64,000 bases of DNA, taken from the NCBI GenBank assembly GCA_963790015.1, contig CAWBMW010000017.1:14252-78251 (forward strand). The letters are read 5' to 3'. Positions 54,919-63,945 of the stretch are shown piece after piece. The notes beneath the pieces are model-generated. The model was not told the DNA's origin, did no database searches, and saw only the letters and a program-made list of their open reading frames with translations. This stretch comes from an uncultured Gammaproteobacteria bacterium (GTDB taxonomy: Bacteria; Pseudomonadota; Gammaproteobacteria; Steroidobacterales; GCA-2729495). Position numbers and translations under genes: made by a program. Each line of letters begins with the position of its first letter. The first letter of the stretch is position 1.

Positions 54919-55497
54919 TTGTCCGGTTGCCCGGACCCGGGCAGGCCCTATCCTGAGTCGGTGACCACTCACCCGCGCATTGACACCGCGCCGATAGCCA
55001 GCTGCATCATCGTCGTGCGCGGCGTACGGGTGCTGCTGGATCGAGATCTGGCAGACCTCTACCGCGTCCGGGCCATCGCGCTCCGGCAGCAGGTGAAGCG
55101 GAACCGGGCACGGTTCCCGGCGGACTTCATGTTCCAGCTGACGCCCAGAGAGGTCGCCGGCCTACTATCACAATCTGTGATACCTCGCCTGACAAGGCGA
55201 GGCGGATCAATGCCTTACGTGTTCACCGAACAGGGCGTGGCGATGCTCTCCAGCGTCCTTTCCAGCGACCGGGCGGTGGCGGTGAACATCGCGATCATGC
55301 GGGCGTTCGTGCAGGTGCGATCGATGCTGGCGACCAACCAGGAGCTGTCGGAGCGCCTCCTGGAGCTTGAGCGGCAGGTCGCCTCCAATGATGCATCGAT
55401 TACCACCCTGTTCGACGCCATCCGGCAACTGATGGCCATACCCCAGGCGGGCAGCCGGCCCATTGGCTTCACCGCGGATTTGGATGGCGCCGGTTGA
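54919..55497 (+). CDS. ORF6N (KilA-N-related) DNA-binding domain protein
   Basis: VRGVRVLLDRDLADLYRVRAIALRQQVKRNRARFPADFMFQLT...PYVFTEQGVAMLSSVLSSDRAVAVNIAIMRAFV. Start codon uncertain. Confidence 0.8.
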   Translation: MSGCPDPGRPYPESVTTHPRIDTAPIASCIIVVRGVRVLLDRDLADLYRVRAIALRQQVKRNRARFPADFMFQLTPREVAGLLSQSVIPRLTRRGGSMPYVFTEQGVAMLSSVLSSDRAVAVNIAIMRAFVQVRSMLATNQELSERLLELERQVASNDASITTLFDAIRQLMAIPQAGSRPIGFTADLDGAG

Positions 55498-55507
55498 CGG
55501 ACTGACG

Positions 55508-56474
55508 CTAACCCCGGTCCAGCGGACTCTTCACCCCCTTCGCCCCCTTCCCCATGACGTGCGTGTAGATCATCGTGGTCTTCACGTCGCTGTGGCCGAG
55601 CAGCTCCTGCACCGTGCGGATGTCGTAGCCGTCCTCGAGCAGGTGGGTGGCGAAGCAGTGGCGTAGCGTGTGCGGGCTGGCCGGCTGCGTGATGCGCGCA
55701 GCCCGGATCGCGGTGCGCATGGCACGCTGGATGGTCTTCTCGTGCAGGTGATGACGGATCGGGCGCCCCGAGTACGGATCCCGGCACAGGGACGTGGACG
55801 GGAAGACGTATTGCCAGCCCCACTGGGTGCCGACGCCCGGGTACTTCGCCGCGAGCGCCATGGGCACCGACACGCCCGGGCTCGCCCCGGCGCCGCTGCT
55901 CGTCGAACCAGCCCCGCAGGCGCGCGAGGTGCGCCCGCAGCGGCAGCGCGACCGCCGCCGGCAGGACCGTCACCCGGTCCTTGCCGCCCTTCCCGTCCCG
56001 GACGATCAGCTCGCCCCGCTCCAGCGCCAGGTCCTTGACCCGCAGTCGCAGCGCTTCCGTCACCCGCAGCCCGCTGCCGTAGAGCAGTTGCGCCACCAGC
56101 AGCGCCGTACCCTGGAGGCCCGCCAGGACTGACCGAACCTCGTCCCGGGTCAGCACCACCGGGAGCCGCTGCGGCCGGCTCGCCCGGGTGACGTTCTCCA
56201 GCCAGGGCAGGTCGACCCCCAGCACATTACGGTAAAGGAACAGCAGGGCCTGTAGCGCCTGGTTCTGGGTGCTCGCGCTGACCTTGCGGCGGACCGCCAA
56301 ATGGGTCAAGAATCGCTCCACGCCCTCCGCACCCAGGTCCCGGGGATGCTGCCGCTCATGGAACTGCACGTACCGCCGAATCCACTGCAGGTAGGCCTGC
56401 TCGGTGCGATACGCCAGATGCCGGGTGCGCATCTTCTCCCTCGCCACCTGCAGCAGCCCCGGCCCCTCGCCCAT
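55508..56474 (-). CDS. intI: integron integrase IntI (tyrosine recombinase); one frame break ~55875
   Basis: Collinear by eye with IntI1. Matching segments are [63 protein letters not shown], the IntI-specific insert [21 protein letters not shown], and [39 protein letters not shown]. Confidence 0.9.
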
Positions 56475-56610
56475 GCGCCCTATCCCTCCGGCCGCTTAGG
56501 CGACATCGCCGTGGCCCCCAGAGAATGGAATCAGGACCTTGCCCCAACCACCACCAGACTATCCGACGCTTTCGACCAGTTTTATCCCCCACTTCGTCCC
56601 CCTACATATA

Positions 56611-56617
56611 GTTAGGC
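56611..56617 (+). other. attI core site GTTAGGC (candidate cassette insertion point)
   Basis: First GTTRRRY downstream of the divergent intI start. The first cassette ORF starts 4 nt later. Confidence 0.5.
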
Positions 56618-56621
56618 GTCT

Positions 56622-56924
56622 ATGTCCAGTTGTACGCTCGATCACGTTCCCATTCGTGGTTCTGGCGGCGATTGCGGGCGGGTCTTGAGCCTGTATGCGG
56701 CACGCCTTAGCGTCGTTGAATTTTCCCTTTACGTAGGGGCGATTCAGACTGGTTTCTCCACTGCTGGAGTCTTTGTCGTGTGCTATCCCGCCCTATTGAT
56801 CGCGCGGCGAATTGCTGGCGCAACTCCTCGCAAACGGACTTATGGACTCCCCCCGCAAGTCGGGCGAGTGATCGATAGTGATGGCCGCGGGGATTTCGCC
56901 TGCAGTCGTATATCCGGCATCTAA
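56622..56924 (+). CDS. first-cassette ORF, hypothetical (weak)
   Basis: 100-aa ORF starting right after attI. Composition is not strongly protein-like, and the region downstream is scrambled by an IS remnant. Confidence 0.2.
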   Translation: MSSCTLDHVPIRGSGGDCGRVLSLYAARLSVVEFSLYVGAIQTGFSTAGVFVVCYPALLIARRIAGATPRKRTYGLPPQVGRVIDSDGRGDFACSRISGI

Positions 56925-57142
56925 GGTGGGCTCTGAATGGCCCGTGCCGACATGGAATCTGCGTCACCGAGGCGCCAGTCGATACAAGCGGCAGGCGAAG
57001 CTGCCGGAAGAGTTATCGGCGTCTCTCGGTGTGGGGTGAACCCGGTTGGCCATGATGGTCGATCAATCTCGTCGCAAGCGTGTGGTGGGTCGTCAGTCTT
57101 AAGCTCGCGGCATCGCGAAGGCCCGCGCTCGAGCTTCACGGC

Positions 57143-57905
57143 TCAGTCGCGCTGCGTCCGTAACGGCTCCTGGTCTCTGAGCGTGGCGTAGCAGATGCGC
57201 GCCAGCTTGTTGGCCAGCGCGCAGGCGGCCTTGTTGTGGTTCGAGCGTCTCTGCACATCCAGGGCCCAGCGGCGCAGGCGCCATCGACGCTTTGCCGCGC
57301 GGTCGTGCGCGACGCTTGGCCGCTCGCAGCACGCTCCTGGCGCCGTGCGTCAGCAGCATGCGCAGGTAGCGGTCCCCGTGCTTGCGAGATCCGCCGAGGT
57401 GGCGGCTACTGCCCGAGGAGTGCTCCTTCGGCGTCAAGCCCGAACCAGCTGGCGAAGTGCCGTGCATCCTTGAAGTGGCCGACGATCACCCGAGTGGCCG
57501 CCACCATCGCCGTGGCGGTGCAGCAGGCCGATGCCGGGCATCGACAGCAGCGTGGTGCAGGCCGGCGACTCACTTGGCCAGCGCTGCGCAACTCACGCTC
57601 CAGCTGGGAGACGGGCTTCGAGCAAGCGGATCTCCTCGACGAGCAACGTCAGCGGTGCCTCGAAACAGCATCCGGGATCGCCGTGCTGGGATCGGCGAGC
57701 ACCCGGCCGATCGGCTCGACGCCCGATGCGGCTACCCATCGGGAATGCGCGATGCCAAACTCCGGCAGAAGCCGCGCAGGGCGTTGATCCGCGAGTACGG
57801 GTTGCCATCCACAGCGCCACGGGTACGGTGCAGCGCCTGCAAGCGCCTGTTGCTCCACGCGACTTGACGCGCACCGGTACAGATCTCGGCGCAGCGCGCA
57901 CCCAT
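57143..57905 (-). pseudogene. IS110-family (IS1111-like) transposase remnant, 5'-truncated and multiply frame-broken
   Basis: The pieces VEQQALQALHRTR, RINALRG / LLPEFGI, GHFKDARHFASWFGL / TPKEHSSGSSRHLGG.SKHGDRYLRMLLTHGARSVLRAA and NHNKAACALANKLARICYATLRDQEP lie across three frames. The N-terminal DEDD region is absent. Confidence 0.7.
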
Positions 57906-58474
57906 GCACCGGCGCCCTCTGCTCATCGGGATAGTAGCCATGTCACTTGTGGGCGTAGGCATGTTGTCGTGGAGGCTAGGGTCGTCCCTGTCAATGTCCG
58001 CAACGACTCGGGAGGCCAGCGGCTCTGAGATCCCGGCGGAGCGCATTGCCGCCATCGCCTCCGGCGAGGTTGCAGAGTTCGTGTCATTCGGCACGCCACT
58101 GTTAGTCCTTCGTCCATCACCTGCTCAATTGCAAGCTGTGGCTGACCTCAACAATCACGTCTGGAATGGTCAGTGGTCTGGGTACGACAAAGAACATGGG
58201 CTATTCATCTACTGGGGTGTAAGTACGCGCTTTCGGTGTAAATTGCAGCATATCCCCCAGGGAGAGTCCCCTCTTGGAGTTCGGCACGGGTTACCGCTGG
58301 CTCGGCGGCTATTTCGACCCCTGCCACGACTCTAGTTACGACTACGCGGGTCGCACAATCAAGTCCCTTACGTACACCCGAAATGGTTTCAATGCGGAGG
58401 TACCAAACTTGCGAGCACCTGAACATCGCTTTCGCCGAGATGGCACGCTTGTCGTCTATCCCGAAGCCAGCTAA
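57904..58474 (+). CDS. cassette protein: bc1-type Rieske-fold homologue lacking most [2Fe-2S] ligands; one frame break ~58270
   Basis: RR plus TM N-terminus (MHRRPLLIGIVAMSLVGVGML). It has GVSTRFRC in place of CTHLGC and GGYFDPCHDSSYDYAGR in place of GGWFCPCHGSHYD. The stop TAA lies in the attC inverse core. Confidence 0.6.
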
Positions 58475-58522
58475 CCAACCGCTCCACCGGTCGCCAGGCG
58501 CCGGTGAGCTCAATCGTTAGGC
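58469..58522 (+). repeat. attC recombination site (54 bp)
   Basis: AGCTAAC...imperfect palindrome...GTTAGGC. Confidence 0.75.
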
Positions 58523-58525
58523 AAC

Positions 58526-58984
58526 ATGAAAGTACGTTGGGCAGCCGTCGCTTGTCTTGTGGTTGGCCATCACGCCACGGCCGCACAGCGAAATTTGTCT
58601 TGCCCGGCGGCCACAGTCCTTCCTGATCTAGACGGTGCGTACCACGCGTGCTCCAACGGCTATGTTGACGGAAGCTGCCAGCGATTCATTGAGGCGTTCA
58701 AAAAGCTCACGGGCCGGTATGACTGTCAGCGCTCGTTTGATACCGACCCTGTGCCAGCCGTTTGGCTCGCACCACGCGGAGCGGTTGAAGATTTCGTACG
58801 GCTAACGTGGCGCCTCGCCTCAGATTCGCAATTCAAGGACAAGCTGTATAAGGACGTACGCACCGAAGCGCGTGCCTTCTTTGGAAGCGCGGATTTCCAA
58901 GGCGTTCTGGACGGAGCCCTAGCGGAGGATTACCTAGGGAAATCACAGCGCGTTGCCAGGGAACTGAAAGAGTCAGGGCCGTGA
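58526..58984 (+). CDS. cassette ORF, secreted Cys-containing hypothetical protein
   Basis: 152 aa, signal-like MKVRWAAVACLVVGHHATAA. Starts 4 nt after the attC core. Confidence 0.6.
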   Translation: MKVRWAAVACLVVGHHATAAQRNLSCPAATVLPDLDGAYHACSNGYVDGSCQRFIEAFKKLTGRYDCQRSFDTDPVPAVWLAPRGAVEDFVRLTWRLASDSQFKDKLYKDVRTEARAFFGSADFQGVLDGALAEDYLGKSQRVARELKESGP

Positions 58985-58988
58985 CGCT

Positions 58989-59072
58989 GCCTAACCAACG
59001 GTTCCAGCCGACGCCGGCGCTTGGCGCCGATTCCCTCACCGCACTCGGCGCGGCTGAACCGAGACGTTATGT
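58989..59072 (+). repeat. attC recombination site (84 bp)
   Basis: GCCTAAC...GTTATGT. Confidence 0.65.
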
Positions 59073-59139
59073 GACAAAGCCGAGCGAAAGCGTGGATTCT
59101 GGCGTTGACCCCCTCCATGGACCGATCTAAGGTGCTGAC

Positions 59140-59370
59140 ATGAAATCGGACCAATCGACCCTTGAGGATCAGATTTCCCGGTTACCTGACCGGGAACGAG
59201 CCCGGTTGGCACTTCGGCTTCTGGAGAGCCTGGAGCCGGGGTCAGACGAGAATGTCGATGAACTCTGGCTGGACGAAGCTGAACGCCGTCTTGGGGACTA
59301 CGACAAGGGCTTGACCGAGGCCCGTGATGCCGACGAAGCAATTGCCGAGATCGAGCGCCACCTTAGATGA
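59140..59370 (+). CDS. type II antitoxin (addiction-module component, TIGR02574-like)
   Basis: RLPDRERARLALRLLESLEPG...DELWLDEAERRLGDYDKG. Overlaps the toxin gene by 4 nt. Confidence 0.75.
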   Translation: MKSDQSTLEDQISRLPDRERARLALRLLESLEPGSDENVDELWLDEAERRLGDYDKGLTEARDADEAIAEIERHLR

Positions 59371-59660
59371 CGCAAATTCGACTTCTCCCGGAGGCCGAGG
59401 AGGAGTTGCAGGCTGCTGCCAGGTTCTACGAAGCGCTGCGGCTGGGCTTGGGGCTGGCTCTGCTTCAGGAGGTACGTCGCGCTAGAGAGCGTATCGCCGA
59501 GCGGCCGAGGGCATCACGCATCGAGCGTGGTGATATTCGGGTCCGAAGCATTCTCCGATTCCCCTATCGGCTTTATTATCGAGTCCGCGCCGACGAGATT
59601 GTCATCATAGCAGTCGGCCATCGGCGTCGACGACCGGGGTTCTGGCGTAGCCGAACTTAG
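59367..59660 (+). CDS. RelE/ParE-family type II toxin
   Basis: IRLLPEAEEELQAAARFYE...FPYRLYYRVRADEIVIIAVGHRRRRPGFW. Confidence 0.8.
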   Translation: MTQIRLLPEAEEELQAAARFYEALRLGLGLALLQEVRRARERIAERPRASRIERGDIRVRSILRFPYRLYYRVRADEIVIIAVGHRRRRPGFWRSRT

Positions 59661-59662
59661 TC

Positions 59663-59749
59663 ACATAACAAATCGCTGATGCTGACCGTGACAGATAAAG
59701 CGTCAAAGACGAAACCGCGGCGTGCGGCCGCTCAGCTCCAACGTTAGAG
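59663..59749 (+). repeat. attC recombination site (87 bp)
   Basis: ACATAAC...GTTAGAG. Confidence 0.65.
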
Positions 59750-59755
59750 CGCCGG

Positions 59756-60067
59756 ATGAAGACGTCACTGTCCATAGCGTTACTGATTGCTGCCGGCTTC
59801 GCAGTTAAGGCATCGCTCGATGAGGCAGAACGTTATGTCCACGTTCGAATCGTCGATACGTGCTTTGCCAAATACTCAGCCCCTCTATCCAAGGCACAGG
59901 AACTCGCGTGCTATGAGTCGCCACGTCAGAGTTCGGCCTACCGGGTCCTTGCCGCATTGGCCTTTCAGCCACAACTATGGAAGAACACTGGGGGACGGTG
60001 CGTGGATTCGCAGGATCAACAGCGTGAGTACTTCGATTGCGGGTGGTGGAACCGTGTCGCGCTCTAA
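59756..60067 (+). CDS. cassette ORF, small secreted Cys-rich hypothetical protein
   Basis: 103 aa, signal MKTSLSIALLIAAGFAVKA, 4 Cys. Confidence 0.55.
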   Translation: MKTSLSIALLIAAGFAVKASLDEAERYVHVRIVDTCFAKYSAPLSKAQELACYESPRQSSAYRVLAALAFQPQLWKNTGGRCVDSQDQQREYFDCGWWNRVAL

Positions 60068-60691: not shown

Positions 60692-61249
60692 GTGATGGCC
60701 TATTTTGAAGACCTGACGAAGTACCAGTACTCGGGAAGGCCACAATCTGGCGTCCTCAATGTAGGCTGGCTAGCCGAGGATCGGCCGTTTAACGTCGGCA
60801 CGACATCTGAGGCATTTCACACCGCACTTAGGGATATGTGCGACAACAAGTCGATGAACCTTTGCTTTGGCCACCATGTCTGCGAGTTCTGCCCGGGTGC
60901 ATCCTGGAGTGATCCATATTTTCACAGCAATGGAAACGGTGAGATCCGCGTCCGCGGAGTTGACGGCACCTGGTATGTCGCACCTCGCCTAGTTCTTCAC
61001 TACGTAGTCGCGCATGACTATTGCCCGCCCAAGGACTTCATTGAGGCAGTATTGAACCCGGCTGAGATTGGGCAAGATCCGGAGCCGGTGCGATTGAGTG
61101 AAGACGAGCAAACAGAACGCATTCGCGAATGGGATAAACGTATGCGGGCCGAACGCGGCCCTCCACTTACTGAAGCAGAAATGGATCGAATCGTGAAGTG
61201 GGGGATTCGGAACACAGGCTCACAAAAGCCGTGGTGGCGATTCTGGTAA
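60692..61249 (+). CDS. cassette ORF, conserved-looking hypothetical protein with Cys/His cluster
   Basis: 185 aa. Contains NLCFGHHVCEFCPG and VLHYVVAHDYCPP. Confidence 0.6.
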   Translation: MMAYFEDLTKYQYSGRPQSGVLNVGWLAEDRPFNVGTTSEAFHTALRDMCDNKSMNLCFGHHVCEFCPGASWSDPYFHSNGNGEIRVRGVDGTWYVAPRLVLHYVVAHDYCPPKDFIEAVLNPAEIGQDPEPVRLSEDEQTERIREWDKRMRAERGPPLTEAEMDRIVKWGIRNTGSQKPWWRFW

Positions 61250-61635: not shown

Positions 61636-61848
61636 ATGCGCTACGCGATCGTGATTGAGGCGGCAGGCACCAACTTCTCGGCATACGTTCCCGATCTGCC
61701 AGGCTGCGTTGCAACTGGGACCACAGTCGAAGCTACAGAGCAGGCCATACGTCAGGCAATCGCATTTCACCTCGATGGGCTTCGAGAGGACGGCACCCCG
61801 ATTCCCCCGCCGCTGAGCCGGGTTGACTACGTCGAGGTCGCCGCCTAA
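61636..61848 (+). CDS. hicB: HicB-family antitoxin (short form)
   Basis: MRYAIVIEAAGTNFSAYVPDLPGCVATGTTVEATEQAIRQAIAFHLDGLREDG. Confidence 0.8.
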   Translation: MRYAIVIEAAGTNFSAYVPDLPGCVATGTTVEATEQAIRQAIAFHLDGLREDGTPIPPPLSRVDYVEVAA

Positions 61849-61930
61849 CCAATCGCTGGAGCGTTCGCGTGAATATTGCAGCGCCAGAACACACCCACTC
61901 CACGCGCGGCGCTCAGCTCAGACGTTAGGC
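61843..61930 (+). repeat. attC recombination site (88 bp), canonical cores
   Basis: GCCTAAC (RYYYAAC)...GTTAGGC (GTTRRRY). Confidence 0.8.
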
Positions 61931-61979
61931 CGCACGAGTACCTGCTCCACACGATCGCCAGTACTCGAGGAGTTCCGCC

Positions 61980-63827
61980 ATGCGCAAGACCCTGCTCTCC
62001 CTTCTCTTCATCCTCGTCATTGGACCCGCGCTGGCGGAGCGCACGCAGAAGCCCCCACTGCACGGCAAGGATTGGATGGCTGTCACCGGCAAGCCCCTCG
62101 GCGCCGCGGCCGGCGCGCGCATCTTCATCCAGGGCGGCAACGCCGTCGACGCGGCTTGCGCCATGCTCGCCGCCACCGCGACGATGTGGGACGTGCTGCA
62201 CTGGGGCGGCGAGACACAGGCGCTCATCTGGGACCCGCGCGCGAAGAAGGTTGTCGGCATCAACGCACTCGGCGTGGCGCCAACCGGCGCGACTCCGGAG
62301 TTCTTCGCCGCCAGAGGCCTCGATTACCCGCCGCCGTACGGCCCGCTCGCGGCGGTAACGCCGGGCACACCGGGTGGGCTGCTGGTGATGCTCGCCGAGT
62401 ACGGCAGGCTGTCGCTGGCGCAGGTGCTGCAGCCGGCGATCGAGATGGCCGACGGCTACCCCATGGAGGGCCAGACGGCGCGCTACATCGAGGAAGACCG
62501 CAAGGAGATCGAGCAGTGGCCCGATTCGAAGCGCCTGTTCTTCCCCAACCCGGGCGGCAAGGCCCCCGACCCGGGCCAGCTGTTCCGCCAGCCCGAGCTG
62601 GCCGCCACATTGCGCAAGCTGGTCGACGCCGAGCGCCAGGCGCTGGCGGCCGGAGCTGACCGCAAGACGGCGATCCGCGCGGCCTACGACCGTTTCTACA
62701 AGGGTGACATCGCCGAGCAGCTCGTCGCCAGCGTACGCGCGCAGGGCGGGCTGTTCACGCGGGAGGACCTGGCGAACTGGCAGGTGCGCATCGAGGAGCC
62801 GGTGAAAACCAGCTACAAGGGCATCGACGTCTACAAGCTCACCGCCTGGACGCAGGGACCAGTGATGCTGCAGGCGCTGAACATCCTGGAGAACTTCGAC
62901 CTGAAGGCGATGGGCTACAACAGCACGCGCTACGTACACACGGTGTACCAGGCCATGAACCTGGCCTATGCCGACCGCGATTTCTACTACGGCGACACCA
63001 CGCAGCCGCCCGAGGAGCCGGTGGCCGGGCTGCTGTCGAAGGACTACGCGAGGGCGCGCGCGAGGCTCATCAACGCCGAGCGCAACGACGCTGCAGCGTC
63101 GCCCGGTGACCCGTACCCTTTCCAGGGCGGCCGCAACCCGTACCTGGAGCAGCTGAAGCGCTGGAACGAGCCGCGAGCGAAGCACCCCGCGCCCCCCGGG
63201 GGCACGCCGGTGAGTTCGCTGGACCCAATGAGCGGGTCGTTCTTCGCGGGGACAACGTCGGTCGTCGCGGCCGACAAGGAAGGCTGGCTGGTTTCGATCA
63301 CGCCGAGCGGCGGCTGGATCCCGGCGGTGGTCGCCGGCCCGACCGGCATCGGGCTGTCACAGCGCATGCAGAGCTTCGTACTCGACGCCGCCGAGAACCC
63401 GTTCAATGTGCTCGCGCCCGGCAAGCGGCCGCGCGTGACGCTGACGCCAACGATGGCGACAAAAGATGGCTCACCGTGGCTGGCGTTCGCGGTCCAGGGC
63501 GGCGACGGGCAGGACCAGCACCTGCTGCAGTACTTCCTGAACATCGTCGAGTTCGGCATGACGCCGCAGGAGGCGGCCGAGGCACCGGCGTTCGTCAGCG
63601 AGCAGATGCGCGAGTCGTTCGAGCAACACGCGTCGAAGGCGGGCGCGATCTGGCTCAACGACGTGACGCCGCCCTACGTGCGCAGCGAACTTGGTCGCAT
63701 GGGCTACGAGCCGAGCTACGGCGCCCGCACGATGGGGCCGATCAACGCGATCCTGATCGACCCGAAGTACGGCACCTTCTGGGGCGCGTCGGGGAACCAC
63801 GGCGAGGATTACGGCATCGGTTGGTAG
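61980..63827 (+). CDS. ggt: gamma-glutamyltransferase-family protein (Ntn hydrolase), secreted; carried as an integron cassette
   Basis: Intact 615 aa. Has a signal peptide, GGNAVDAACAM, the nucleophile region FFAGTTSVVAADKEGWLVSITPS, and a C-terminal GASGNHGEDYGIGW. Confidence 0.85.
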   Translation: MRKTLLSLLFILVIGPALAERTQKPPLHGKDWMAVTGKPLGAAAGARIFIQGGNAVDAACAMLAATATMWDVLHWGGETQALIWDPRAKKVVGINALGVAPTGATPEFFAARGLDYPPPYGPLAAVTPGTPGGLLVMLAEYGRLSLAQVLQPAIEMADGYPMEGQTARYIEEDRKEIEQWPDSKRLFFPNPGGKAPDPGQLFRQPELAATLRKLVDAERQALAAGADRKTAIRAAYDRFYKGDIAEQLVASVRAQGGLFTREDLANWQVRIEEPVKTSYKGIDVYKLTAWTQGPVMLQALNILENFDLKAMGYNSTRYVHTVYQAMNLAYADRDFYYGDTTQPPEEPVAGLLSKDYARARARLINAERNDAAASPGDPYPFQGGRNPYLEQLKRWNEPRAKHPAPPGGTPVSSLDPMSGSFFAGTTSVVAADKEGWLVSITPSGGWIPAVVAGPTGIGLSQRMQSFVLDAAENPFNVLAPGKRPRVTLTPTMATKDGSPWLAFAVQGGDGQDQHLLQYFLNIVEFGMTPQEAAEAPAFVSEQMRESFEQHASKAGAIWLNDVTPPYVRSELGRMGYEPSYGARTMGPINAILIDPKYGTFWGASGNHGEDYGIGW

Positions 63828-63885
63828 ACCGTACCGGACACCGCCCCTGGTGTTCTATAGTGAGCCGGGAGGCCTGCGCGGTGTC

Positions 63886-63945
63886 GCCTAACCCTTCGCC
63901 CGAGCCGACCCGCAATGGCAGAGCGGCTCACCTCAACCGTCAGGC
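63886..63945 (+). repeat. attC recombination site (60 bp), degenerate core
   Basis: GCCTAAC...GTCAGGC. A new ORF (ATG 63961) starts after it and runs off the window. Confidence 0.55.

What the first reader, a model, noticed from the sequence alone, without database searches (positions are those of the whole stretch)
57904..58474. Integron cassette encoding a bc1-type Rieske homologue that has lost three of its four [2Fe-2S] ligands
The cassette protein keeps the architecture of the cytochrome bc1 iron-sulfur subunit. It has an RR-containing N-terminal TM anchor, a GEVAEFVSFGTPLLVLRPSPAQL segment, and the two cluster boxes. The boxes, however, read GVSTRFRC (canonical CTHLGC) and GGYFDPCHDSSYDYAGR (canonical CPCHGSHYD). 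The first Cys and His of box I and the first Cys of box II are therefore substituted. I do not know of a precedent for a ligand-less, membrane-anchored Rieske fold on a mobile cassette. Possible roles are a decoy or assembly competitor for bc1, a scaffold, or a decaying pseudogene. One frame break (~58270) must be bridged to read box II.
Basis: partly seen in the sequence, partly recalled or inferred. Interest (0 to 1): 0.6.

Follow-up and report, generated by a model that had tools for sequence, protein, structure and literature searches.

The report
Cluster-less bc1 Rieske paralogue on integron cassette
A mobile integron gene cassette encodes a membrane-anchored copy of the respiratory Rieske protein that can no longer hold its iron-sulfur cluster. 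It belongs to a large, unnamed, conserved family found mostly on such cassettes, and the apparent frame break is an extra base in this assembly.

Summary
Window 57904-58474 (+) reads as a full-length, collinear homologue of the proteobacterial cytochrome bc1 Rieske subunit. Box I is S-T-R-F-R-C where the canonical motif is C-T-H-L-G-C. Box II is D-P-C-H where the canonical motif is C-P-C-H. Three of the four [2Fe-2S] ligands are therefore gone, and both disulfide cysteines are kept.

The frame break is one extra base at 58282, not at about 58270. Near-identical copies in other metagenome assemblies lack that base and give an intact 189-aa ORF. The same assembly also has frameshifts in murA, its own petA, intI and an IS transposase, so the break is very probably an assembly error.

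The gene is not a decaying pseudogene:
- dN/dS against a 77%-identical copy is 0.15.
- A profile search finds about 130 clusters (at 50% identity) of relatives, none with a cysteine at either ligand-cysteine position.
- The two remaining cysteines co-vary (106 both, 15 neither, 2 one).

An AlphaFold model matches only bc1 Rieske subunits. Seven of ten contexts examined are attC-flanked or probable cassettes, and this cassette occurs with three different upstream neighbours. Function is untested. My best inference is a non-redox, periplasm-facing binding module, possibly acting on bc1. No curated family or paper describes it.

The parts
55215..56474 (-). Integron integrase gene (intI-like), frame-broken in this assembly
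   Evidence: PF13495 (E=8e-30) plus PF00589 positions 3-80 lie in the 419-aa ORF. PF00589 positions 94-168 lie in a second frame, ORF 55508..55873. The syntenic L001 has an intact 321-aa intI next to an Iso_dh gene.
56611..56617 (+). attI core GTTAGGC
   Evidence: Found, 137 bp upstream of the intI start on the opposite strand.
56800..57894 (-). IS110-family insertion sequence or remnant between attI and the cassette. The left end is uncertain. The transposase is frame-broken.
   Evidence: PF02371 is split between ORFs 57099..57467 and 57406..57591. blastn finds ISPa25- and ISPa21-like IS110 transposases. It is single-copy in this genome. Contig depth is high in other metagenomes.
57895..58522 (+). 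Gene cassette. Its first ~9 nt (TTAGCTGAC) were lost at the IS junction.
   Evidence: Likeness to other samples starts at 57897 and ends at 58519-58522. L049, L051 and L052 carry the full 5' end G|TTAGCTGACGCACCC-ATG behind different upstream sequences.
57904..58474 (+). Coding sequence of the cluster-less bc1-type Rieske paralogue. It is 189 aa once base 58282 is left out.
57919..57975 (+). N-terminal membrane anchor (residues about 6-24), preceded by H-R-R-P-L-L
   Evidence: Read directly from the sequence. The AlphaFold model of the homologue P0003 has a helix at residues 2-38. Family members P0016, P0012 and P0093 give weak PF10399 hits.
58213..58239 (+). Box I, W-G-V-S-T-R-F-R-C. Ser and Arg replace the Cys and His ligands. 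The last Cys, the disulfide partner, is kept.
   Evidence: Alignment to 8smr_C and 7yr9_A. Family statistics.
58282..58282 (+). Extra base that breaks the frame in this assembly
   Evidence: It is left out in the only contigs of runs X5 and X6 that cover it. It is absent from L001 and from L049-L052.
58298..58354 (+). Box II, W-L-G-G-Y-F-D-P-C-H-D-S-S-Y-D-Y-A-G-R. Asp replaces the Cys ligand. The disulfide Cys and the second His are kept.
58469..58522 (+). attC of the cassette. R'' (AGCTAAC) overlaps the stop codon. R' is GTTAGGC.
   Evidence: Repeat families D1 and D2. It is conserved with the attC of the L001 cassette.

Best explanation
This is a mobile single-gene integron cassette. Its product is a paralogue of the cytochrome bc1 Rieske iron-sulfur subunit (PetA) that has lost the [2Fe-2S] cluster.

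Shown:
- It keeps PetA's whole architecture: N-terminal membrane helix, Pro-containing hinge, bc1-type Rieske fold, and the two cysteines that form the loop-stapling disulfide in PetA.
- The two cluster-ligand cysteines are Ser and Asp, and the first ligand histidine is Arg.
- It belongs to a large, diverse, uncurated family (about 130 clusters at 50% identity). No member has a cysteine at either ligand-cysteine position.
- The family is under purifying selection and is mostly carried on attC-flanked cassettes.
- The frame break at 58282 is an extra base of this assembly, and intact copies exist elsewhere.

Inferred:
- The protein is inserted with its head in the periplasm. The twin-arginine motif is no longer conserved in the family, which fits the absence of a cofactor.
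- The head is stabilised by the disulfide and cannot transfer electrons.
- It acts by binding through the still-conserved former cluster tip.
- The most economical partner is the host bc1 complex, either the slot normally taken by the Rieske subunit or the cytochrome b Qo face. Binding there would modulate or block bc1. I give this last step about 0.3.
For: Homology and fold:
- TIGR01416 E=2e-10 over positions 4-172 of 176.
- PDB sequence hits are almost all bc1 Rieske chains, and the significant ones all are.
- The AlphaFold model of the 67%-identical P0003 has pLDDT 77.7. Its 50 best Foldseek hits are all bc1 Rieske subunits, the best being 8smr_C at E=3e-8. TM-scores normalised to the soluble head structures are 0.70-0.73.

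Ligand loss is a property of the whole family. Among 123 full-length members:
- Position 107 is S in 86, G in 18 and D in 9.
- Position 138 is D in 93 and S in 11.
- Neither position is ever C.

Cysteine pair: both present in 106 members, neither in 15, only one in 2. The double losses are scattered over the tree.

Family size: 236 hits at E<=1e-10. True CxH/CxCH Rieske proteins first appear at about rank 126, and they form one side of a single branch (SH-aLRT 93).

Selection: dN/dS is 0.147 over 189 codons against the L001 copy.

Intact copies:
- Base 58282 is absent from contigs of two independent runs.
- P0159 is 98% identical and intact, and is seen on 4 contigs.
- L052 carries an intact 189-aa ORF.

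Assembly errors elsewhere in this genome: murA has two frameshifts, petA one, and intI and the IS transposase are also split.

Cassette status:
- The window.
- L001, the fifth cassette of a syntenic integron.
- L041, L044 and L045, with attC on both sides.
- L040 and L042, probable.
- The same cassette sits behind three different upstream sequences, joined exactly at G|TTAGC.

Twin-arginine motif: RR lies in the first 35 aa of 46 of 120 family members, against 10 of 13 true Rieske proteins.

Both genomes known to carry a family member also have a genuine petA.
Against: - No experiment bears on function, location or partner.
- Single-gene cassettes do not name a partner.
- The Pro-loop region of PetA (G-P-A-P) is replaced by a longer, poorly modelled insertion (pLDDT 54-55 at residues 151-170). 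That would change the surface that docks on cytochrome b.
- The box II histidine is kept in only 52 of 123 members.
- A dominant-negative bc1 subunit would be costly to its host.
- Three of ten contexts (L003, L005, L047) show no attC.
- The co-varying cysteine pair could equally be metal ligands.
- I could not measure distances in the model.
- The two genomes that carry both the family and bc1 are too few to mean anything.
Confidence: 0.75

Rival explanations
1. It is a stand-alone, membrane-tethered periplasmic binding module that has nothing to do with bc1. The Rieske fold would have been re-used as a scaffold, for example as an immunity, receptor-blocking or ligand-binding protein, as is often suspected for cassette-encoded proteins.
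For: - It is a single-gene cassette with no conserved neighbour.
- The family diverges fast, with a median terminal branch of 0.82.
- It was absent from the 400 other phylum genomes searched, which is typical of accessory genes. A narrow motif scan of about 185,000 species genomes found one locus.
- The Pro-loop is replaced.
- PSB33/TEF5 shows that a cluster-less Rieske-like domain can serve a quite different complex.
Against: - The whole PetA architecture, including anchor and hinge, is retained.
- The former tip loops are the best-conserved part of the protein.
- PADLOC gives no hit.
Confidence: 0.35
2. The former cluster site has been rebuilt as a mononuclear metal site (Zn or Fe). The ligands would be the two retained cysteines plus Asp138 and His141, or Cys and Glu in the subgroup with W-D-x-x-C-E-V-S-Y. 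The protein would then be a periplasmic metalloprotein or enzyme, not an inert mimic.
For: - C112 and C140/141 co-vary (106/15/2).
- D138 is kept in 93 of 123 members.
- Position 141 is His in 52 members. Where the cysteine is shifted, it is followed by Glu.
Against: - These two cysteines are the disulfide pair of PetA, and a periplasmic location favours a disulfide.
- 15 members lack both cysteines yet keep the rest of the family signature.
- No position besides the cysteines and Asp is kept across all three subgroups.
Confidence: 0.15
3. It is a decaying pseudogene of a duplicated petA. The ligand losses and the frameshift would be stages of erosion.
For: The window copy is frame-broken and sits behind an IS insertion that removed the first bases of the cassette.
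Against: - dN/dS is 0.15.
- The same substitutions are conserved in about 130 diverged clusters.
- Intact copies at 98-100% identity exist in other samples.
- The same assembly has frameshifts in the essential gene murA.
Confidence: 0.03
4. It is an ordinary Rieske protein whose ligands only appear to be lost because of sequence errors.
For: The assembly does carry indel errors.
Against: - Removing the one extra base restores the frame but not the ligands.
- Independent assemblies give the same S-T-R...D-P-C-H sequence.
- Restoring the ligands would need several base substitutions, not an indel.
Confidence: 0.01

Closest known systems
Cytochrome bc1 Rieske iron-sulfur subunit (PetA; TIGR01416, PF00355 + PF10399; e.g. 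PDB 8smr chain C, 2yiu chain C)
   Same: - Similar length and collinear over nearly the whole protein.
- N-terminal membrane helix, Pro-containing hinge and bc1-type Rieske fold.
- The W-x-G-G, Y-D-x-x-G-R and N-L-x-x-P motifs.
- The disulfide cysteine pair and the second (box II) histidine.
   Different: - The cluster ligands C, H and C are replaced by S, R and D.
- It scores below the curated cut-off and gives no PF00355 hit.
- The Pro-loop is replaced by a longer insertion.
- The twin-arginine motif is not conserved in the family.
- It is not in a petABC operon but alone on an integron cassette.
- The host keeps a genuine petA elsewhere.
PSB33 / TEF5 / LIL8 of chloroplasts
   Same: A membrane-anchored Rieske-like domain that lacks the residues for a cluster or for mononuclear iron. 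It acts as a non-redox auxiliary factor of a bioenergetic complex (PMC12164590).
   Different: - It is eukaryotic.
- It has one or two C-terminal helices, not an N-terminal one.
- Its domain faces the stroma.
- It is not of the bc1 type.
- No sequence relation was found here.
NirD, small subunit of assimilatory nitrite reductase (Pfam PF13806, Rieske_2)
   Same: A Rieske-like fold without the iron-sulfur ligands (my own knowledge, not tested here).
   Different: It is soluble, cytoplasmic and small, with no membrane anchor and no disulfide. No Pfam hit to it was obtained for any family member.

Membership tests
bc1 Rieske iron-sulfur subunit (PetA, TIGR01416 / PF00355) | Score above the curated cut-off of TIGR01416 (97.4 bits), or a PF00355 hit | tested here: not met
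   40.9 bits, E=2e-10. PF00355 gives no hit for the window protein or for six other ligand-less members.
bc1 Rieske iron-sulfur subunit (PetA, TIGR01416 / PF00355) | Box I C-x-H ligands of the [2Fe-2S] cluster | tested here: not met
   S-T-R aligns with C-T-H of 8smr_C and 7yr9_A. In the family these two positions are mostly S, and R/Y/K.
bc1 Rieske iron-sulfur subunit (PetA, TIGR01416 / PF00355) | Box II C-x-x-H ligands | tested here: not met
   D-P-C-H: the Cys ligand is Asp and only the His is kept.
bc1 Rieske iron-sulfur subunit (PetA, TIGR01416 / PF00355) | Cysteine pair that forms the disulfide between the two cluster loops | tested here: met
   C112 and C140 are present. The pair co-varies in the family, 106 both, 15 neither, 2 one. 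Whether they are oxidised is not testable here.
bc1 Rieske iron-sulfur subunit (PetA, TIGR01416 / PF00355) | bc1-type Rieske fold with an N-terminal transmembrane helix | tested here: met
   The AlphaFold model of P0003 has a helix at 2-38 followed by a beta domain. The 50 best Foldseek hits are all bc1 Rieske chains.
bc1 Rieske iron-sulfur subunit (PetA, TIGR01416 / PF00355) | Twin-arginine (Tat) signal anchor | tested here: inconclusive
   The window protein has H-R-R-P-L-L. Only 46 of 120 family members have RR in the first 35 aa. PF10399 hits are weak, and only P0012 reaches the cut-off.
bc1 Rieske iron-sulfur subunit (PetA, TIGR01416 / PF00355) | Encoded with cytochrome b and c1 (petABC/fbcFBC operon) | tested here: not met
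   It is a single ORF between cassette boundaries. No pet gene lies beside any of the 10 members examined.
Integron gene cassette | attC at the 3' end, with R'' (..TAAC) and R' (GTTRRRY) cores in inverted arrangement | tested here: met
   58469-58522, from AGCTAAC to GTTAGGC. It belongs to repeat families D1 and D2 of the array and is conserved with L001.
Integron gene cassette | Lies in an array next to intI and attI, in the same orientation as the other cassettes | tested here: met
   intI-like gene at 55215-56474 (-), attI core at 56611, and at least 6 further attC sites downstream.
Integron gene cassette | 5' boundary at G|TTRRRY | tested here: not met
   In the window the first ~9 nt are replaced by the IS110-like element. 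The 98%-identical copies L049, L051 and L052 have G|TTAGCTGAC....
Integron gene cassette | The same unit is found in different positions or arrays (mobility) | tested here: met
   Three different upstream sequences are joined at the same boundary. A different downstream sequence follows position 58522 in run X5.
Cluster-less Rieske-like proteins (NirD PF13806; PSB33/TEF5) | Sequence membership in those families | tested here: not met
   Pfam gives no hit to PF13806 or any other Rieske-clan model. The resemblance is in principle only.

The most novel reading that the evidence does not exclude
A whole family of cluster-less 'pseudo-Rieske' subunits spreads between bacteria on integron cassettes. 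They would act by occupying the iron-sulfur-protein slot or the Qo face of the host's cytochrome bc1 complex. That would make them a horizontally transferable, dominant modulator or brake of respiratory electron flow.

Alternatively, the old cluster pocket has been rebuilt into a Cys2-Asp-His/Glu metal site with a new periplasmic chemistry.
Probability: 0.3. Interest if true: 0.8.

Novelty: new variant of a known kind. Interest (0 to 1): 0.55.

Why it matters
Rieske proteins are defined by their cluster. The bc1 subunit in particular is regarded as an invariant core part of respiration and photosynthesis.

This finding is a diverse, selected family that keeps everything of that subunit except the cluster, and that travels on integron cassettes. 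If it docks on bc1, it would be a mobile, protein-level regulator or inhibitor of a core respiratory complex. It would also be a natural tool for studying how the iron-sulfur subunit is assembled and how it moves. If it does not dock on bc1, it is a clear case of a redox fold re-used as a periplasmic scaffold.

It also assigns a fold and an ancestry to one family among the cassette genes of unknown function. On the practical side, automatic annotation already calls some members 'ubiquinol-cytochrome c reductase iron-sulfur subunit', which is misleading for metabolic reconstructions.

Tried and rejected
- Pfam on the two ORF pieces and on the read-through protein gave nothing. PF00355 is blind to the family.
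- PADLOC gave no hit.
- A strict search for GCCTAAC...GTTAGGC found no site. Two home-made attC scoring scripts were too strict and missed even the known sites. I therefore read the spacers directly.
- A search of 400 genomes of the same phylum with the family profile returned only genuine petA genes.
- The scan of GTDB species genomes used a narrow pattern and found only one locus, a Chromatiales MAG carrying P0012.
- Four literature searches found no description of the family.
- The first read-through, with the shift placed at 58261 (P0001), was replaced by one at the true site (P0013).
- The careful tree did not finish, so the quick tree was used.
- I could not read the model's coordinates, so the Cys-Cys distance and the pocket geometry were not inspected.
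- L052's upstream sequence does not visibly encode the IntI N-terminus, so I do not call it attI.
- Rejected readings: pseudogene, and an ordinary Rieske protein after sequence correction (see rival explanations).

Full report
**1. The observation**

These are M-H-R-R-P-L-L followed by a hydrophobic stretch, the GEVAEFVSFGTPLLVLRPSPAQL segment, G-V-S-T-R-F-R-C, and G-G-Y-F-D-P-C-H-D-S-S-Y-D-Y-A-G-R.

Each piece alone hits the proteobacterial Rieske model TIGR01416 weakly and collinearly. The read-through protein matches positions 4-172 of 176 with E=2e-10 and 40.9 bits, well under the curated 97.4 bits. Pfam finds nothing.

Against solved structures nearly all hits, and all the significant ones, are bc1 Rieske subunits. 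The alignment to the Pseudomonas aeruginosa subunit (8smr_C, E=9e-6) puts S-T-R-F-R-C on C-T-H-L-G-C and D-P-C-H on C-P-C-H. Three of the four ligands (Cys, His, Cys) are therefore Ser, Arg and Asp. The second His and both disulfide cysteines remain.

**2. The frame break**

Homologues read S-P-L-G-V-G-V-G-G-R-W and S-P-L-G-E-G-T-G-Y-R-W across the break. The window reads GGA GTT c GGC ACG, so the break is one extra base at 58282.

I laid Logan contigs of four metagenome runs from four studies on 56000-60000. The only two contigs that cover the site both leave out exactly base 58282. These are X5 (57897-58511) and X6 (58080-58519, with no other difference).

The protein collection holds P0159, an intact copy that is 174/177 identical and is seen on four contigs. 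L052 carries the full 189-aa ORF. L049 has the same downstream cassettes as the window.

The window's genome is 2.7 Mb in 28 contigs and 62% complete. It also has the following breaks:
- its genuine petA is split by a frameshift;
- murA has two frameshifts;
- intI is split;
- the IS transposase is split.

rpoB is intact. The break is therefore very probably an assembly indel and at most a single-strain lesion.

**3. Context**

GC content falls from about 0.70 to 0.58 across 58-62 kb.

An intI-like gene (PF13495 + PF00589) lies at 55215-56474 (-). A GTTAGGC core lies at 56611. A family of attC sites (repeat families D1 and D2) punctuates 58.4-64 kb. The cassette's own attC is 58469-58522, and the stop codon lies inside R''.

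Between attI and the cassette lies an IS110-family element or remnant. Evidence is PF02371 and likeness to ISPa25 and ISPa21 transposases. ISPa21 belongs to the IS1111-attC group that targets attC sites (my own knowledge).

In L049 and L051 the same cassette follows another cassette's attC. In L052 it follows an unrelated sequence. In both cases the join is exactly at G|TTAGCTGACGCACCC-ATG. The window has lost TTAGCTGAC at the IS junction. In run X5 a different sequence follows position 58522. The unit is thus a true mobile cassette.

**4. The family**

A word-based search found ten intact relatives of 181-212 aa. A profile of these, run against 1.84 billion cluster representatives, gave 1111 hits at E<=1e-3, 236 at E<=1e-10 and 67 at E<=1e-30.

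Of the sequences retrieved, 133 are ligand-less. Proteins with canonical C-x-H and C-x-C-H motifs appear only from about rank 126. In a quick maximum-likelihood tree the true Rieske proteins are one side of a single branch (SH-aLRT 93).

Residues at the key positions in 123 full-length members:

| Position (role in PetA) | Residues in the family |
|---|---|
| 107 (first Cys ligand) | S 86, G 18, D 9; never C |
| 109 (first His ligand) | R 28, Y 20, K 15, H 12 |
| 138 (second Cys ligand) | D 93, S 11; never C |
| 141 (second His ligand) | H 52, C 25 |

The two other cysteines are both present in 106 members, both absent in 15, and single in 2. This fits a retained disulfide, or alternatively a shared metal site.

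The invariant residues are largely those that PetA also conserves: G54, W132, G134-G135, D146, G149-R150 and L169.

dN/dS between the window gene (without base 58282) and the 77%-identical L001 gene is 0.147.

RR occurs in the first 35 residues of only 46 of 120 members, against 10 of 13 true Rieske proteins.

**5. Fold**

AlphaFold2 on P0003 with the ten-sequence alignment gave pLDDT 77.7 and pTM 0.68. The model has an N-terminal helix at residues 2-38 and a beta domain. Confidence is low in the hinge and at residues 151-170.

The 50 best Foldseek hits in the PDB are all bc1 Rieske subunits. The best is 8smr_C at E=3e-8 and TM 0.59. TM-scores normalised to the isolated head structures are 0.70-0.73.

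**6. Distribution and neighbours**

Contexts of the ten members examined:
- Five are flanked by clear attC sites: the window, L001 (the fifth cassette of a syntenic Iso_dh-intI integron), L041, L044 and L045.
- Two are probable: L040 and L042.
- Three show none: L003, L005 (which follows a ParE pair) and L047.

All three sequence subgroups are represented among the cassettes.

No gene is a constant neighbour. The family was not found in the 400 other genomes searched from the phylum. A narrow-pattern scan of species genomes found only a Chromatiales MAG. It is thus a rare accessory gene seen mainly in metagenomes. Both genomes known to hold it also have a genuine petA.

The protein atlas lists look-alike clusters of 'hypothetical proteins' without a Pfam family in Pseudomonadota.

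**7. Mechanism**

Shown: the protein cannot ligate a Rieske cluster, yet it is selected and it keeps the PetA architecture.

Inferred: it is a non-redox, membrane-tethered, periplasm-facing head held by the old disulfide. It acts by binding through the conserved former tip.

As a single-gene mobile unit it must work alone or with a widely conserved host partner. bc1 is the obvious candidate, and I give that about 0.3. The rivals are an unrelated binding role (0.35) and a rebuilt Cys2-Asp-His/Glu metal site (0.15). Pseudogene and 'ordinary Rieske' are rejected.

**8. Comparison with known families, and novelty**

It fails the membership tests for PetA: cut-off score, ligands and operon. It is nevertheless clearly derived from PetA.

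Cluster-less Rieske-like domains are known: PSB33/TEF5 and NirD (my own knowledge). The principle is therefore not new.

I found no curated model and no paper for a bacterial bc1-type, cassette-borne family. I rate it a new variant of a known kind, of moderate interest. It would be of high interest if it proves to act on bc1.

Noticed in passing
G000 contig C16:86777-88766 (loci L007/L008): The genome's genuine petA (with intact CTHLGC and CPCHGS motifs) is split by a frameshift. The adjacent murA matches its model in three pieces across two frames. This indicates local indel errors in the assembly. rpoB on contig C3 is intact.
   Followed up: yes
window 55215-56474 (-): The integron integrase is frame-broken. 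The SAM-like domain and catalytic positions 3-80 are in one frame, and catalytic positions 94-168 are in ORF 55508..55873. The syntenic metagenome contig L001 has an intact 321-aa intI.
   Followed up: partly
window about 56800-57894 (-): An IS110-family element (ISPa21/ISPa25-like) lies between attI and the first cassette. It is single-copy in this genome, its transposase is frame-broken, and it removed the first ~9 nt of the cassette. It is multi-copy in several metagenomes, judged by contig depth.
   Followed up: partly
window 61843-63892: A 615-aa gamma-glutamyltranspeptidase gene (61980..63827, PF01019) lies between an attC-like site (61843-61930) and a GCCTAAC core at 63886. It looks like an unusually large cassette at the end of the array.
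   Followed up: no
window 59140-59660 and 60692-61249: Other cassettes in the array are a toxin-antitoxin pair (Unstab_antitox + ParE) and a DUF7919 protein. The 152-aa (58526..58984) and 103-aa (59756..60067) products have no Pfam family.
   Followed up: no
L001 7965-8546: The called start of P0002 (181 aa) is probably too far downstream. An in-frame ATG 36 nt upstream gives M-Q-R-R-L-L-L..., which matches the window protein's N-terminus.
   Followed up: partly
L040 1123-2274: In one relative (P0016) no attC is visible in the 67-bp spacer between the family gene and the next 175-aa ORF. This may be a two-gene cassette, and the partner has no Pfam family.
   Followed up: no
G401 (Chromatiales MAG SZUA-493), contigs C3 and C40: This genome has two proteins above the TIGR01416 cut-off (235 and 133 bits) in addition to the ligand-less member P0012, so it holds several Rieske paralogues.
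   Followed up: no
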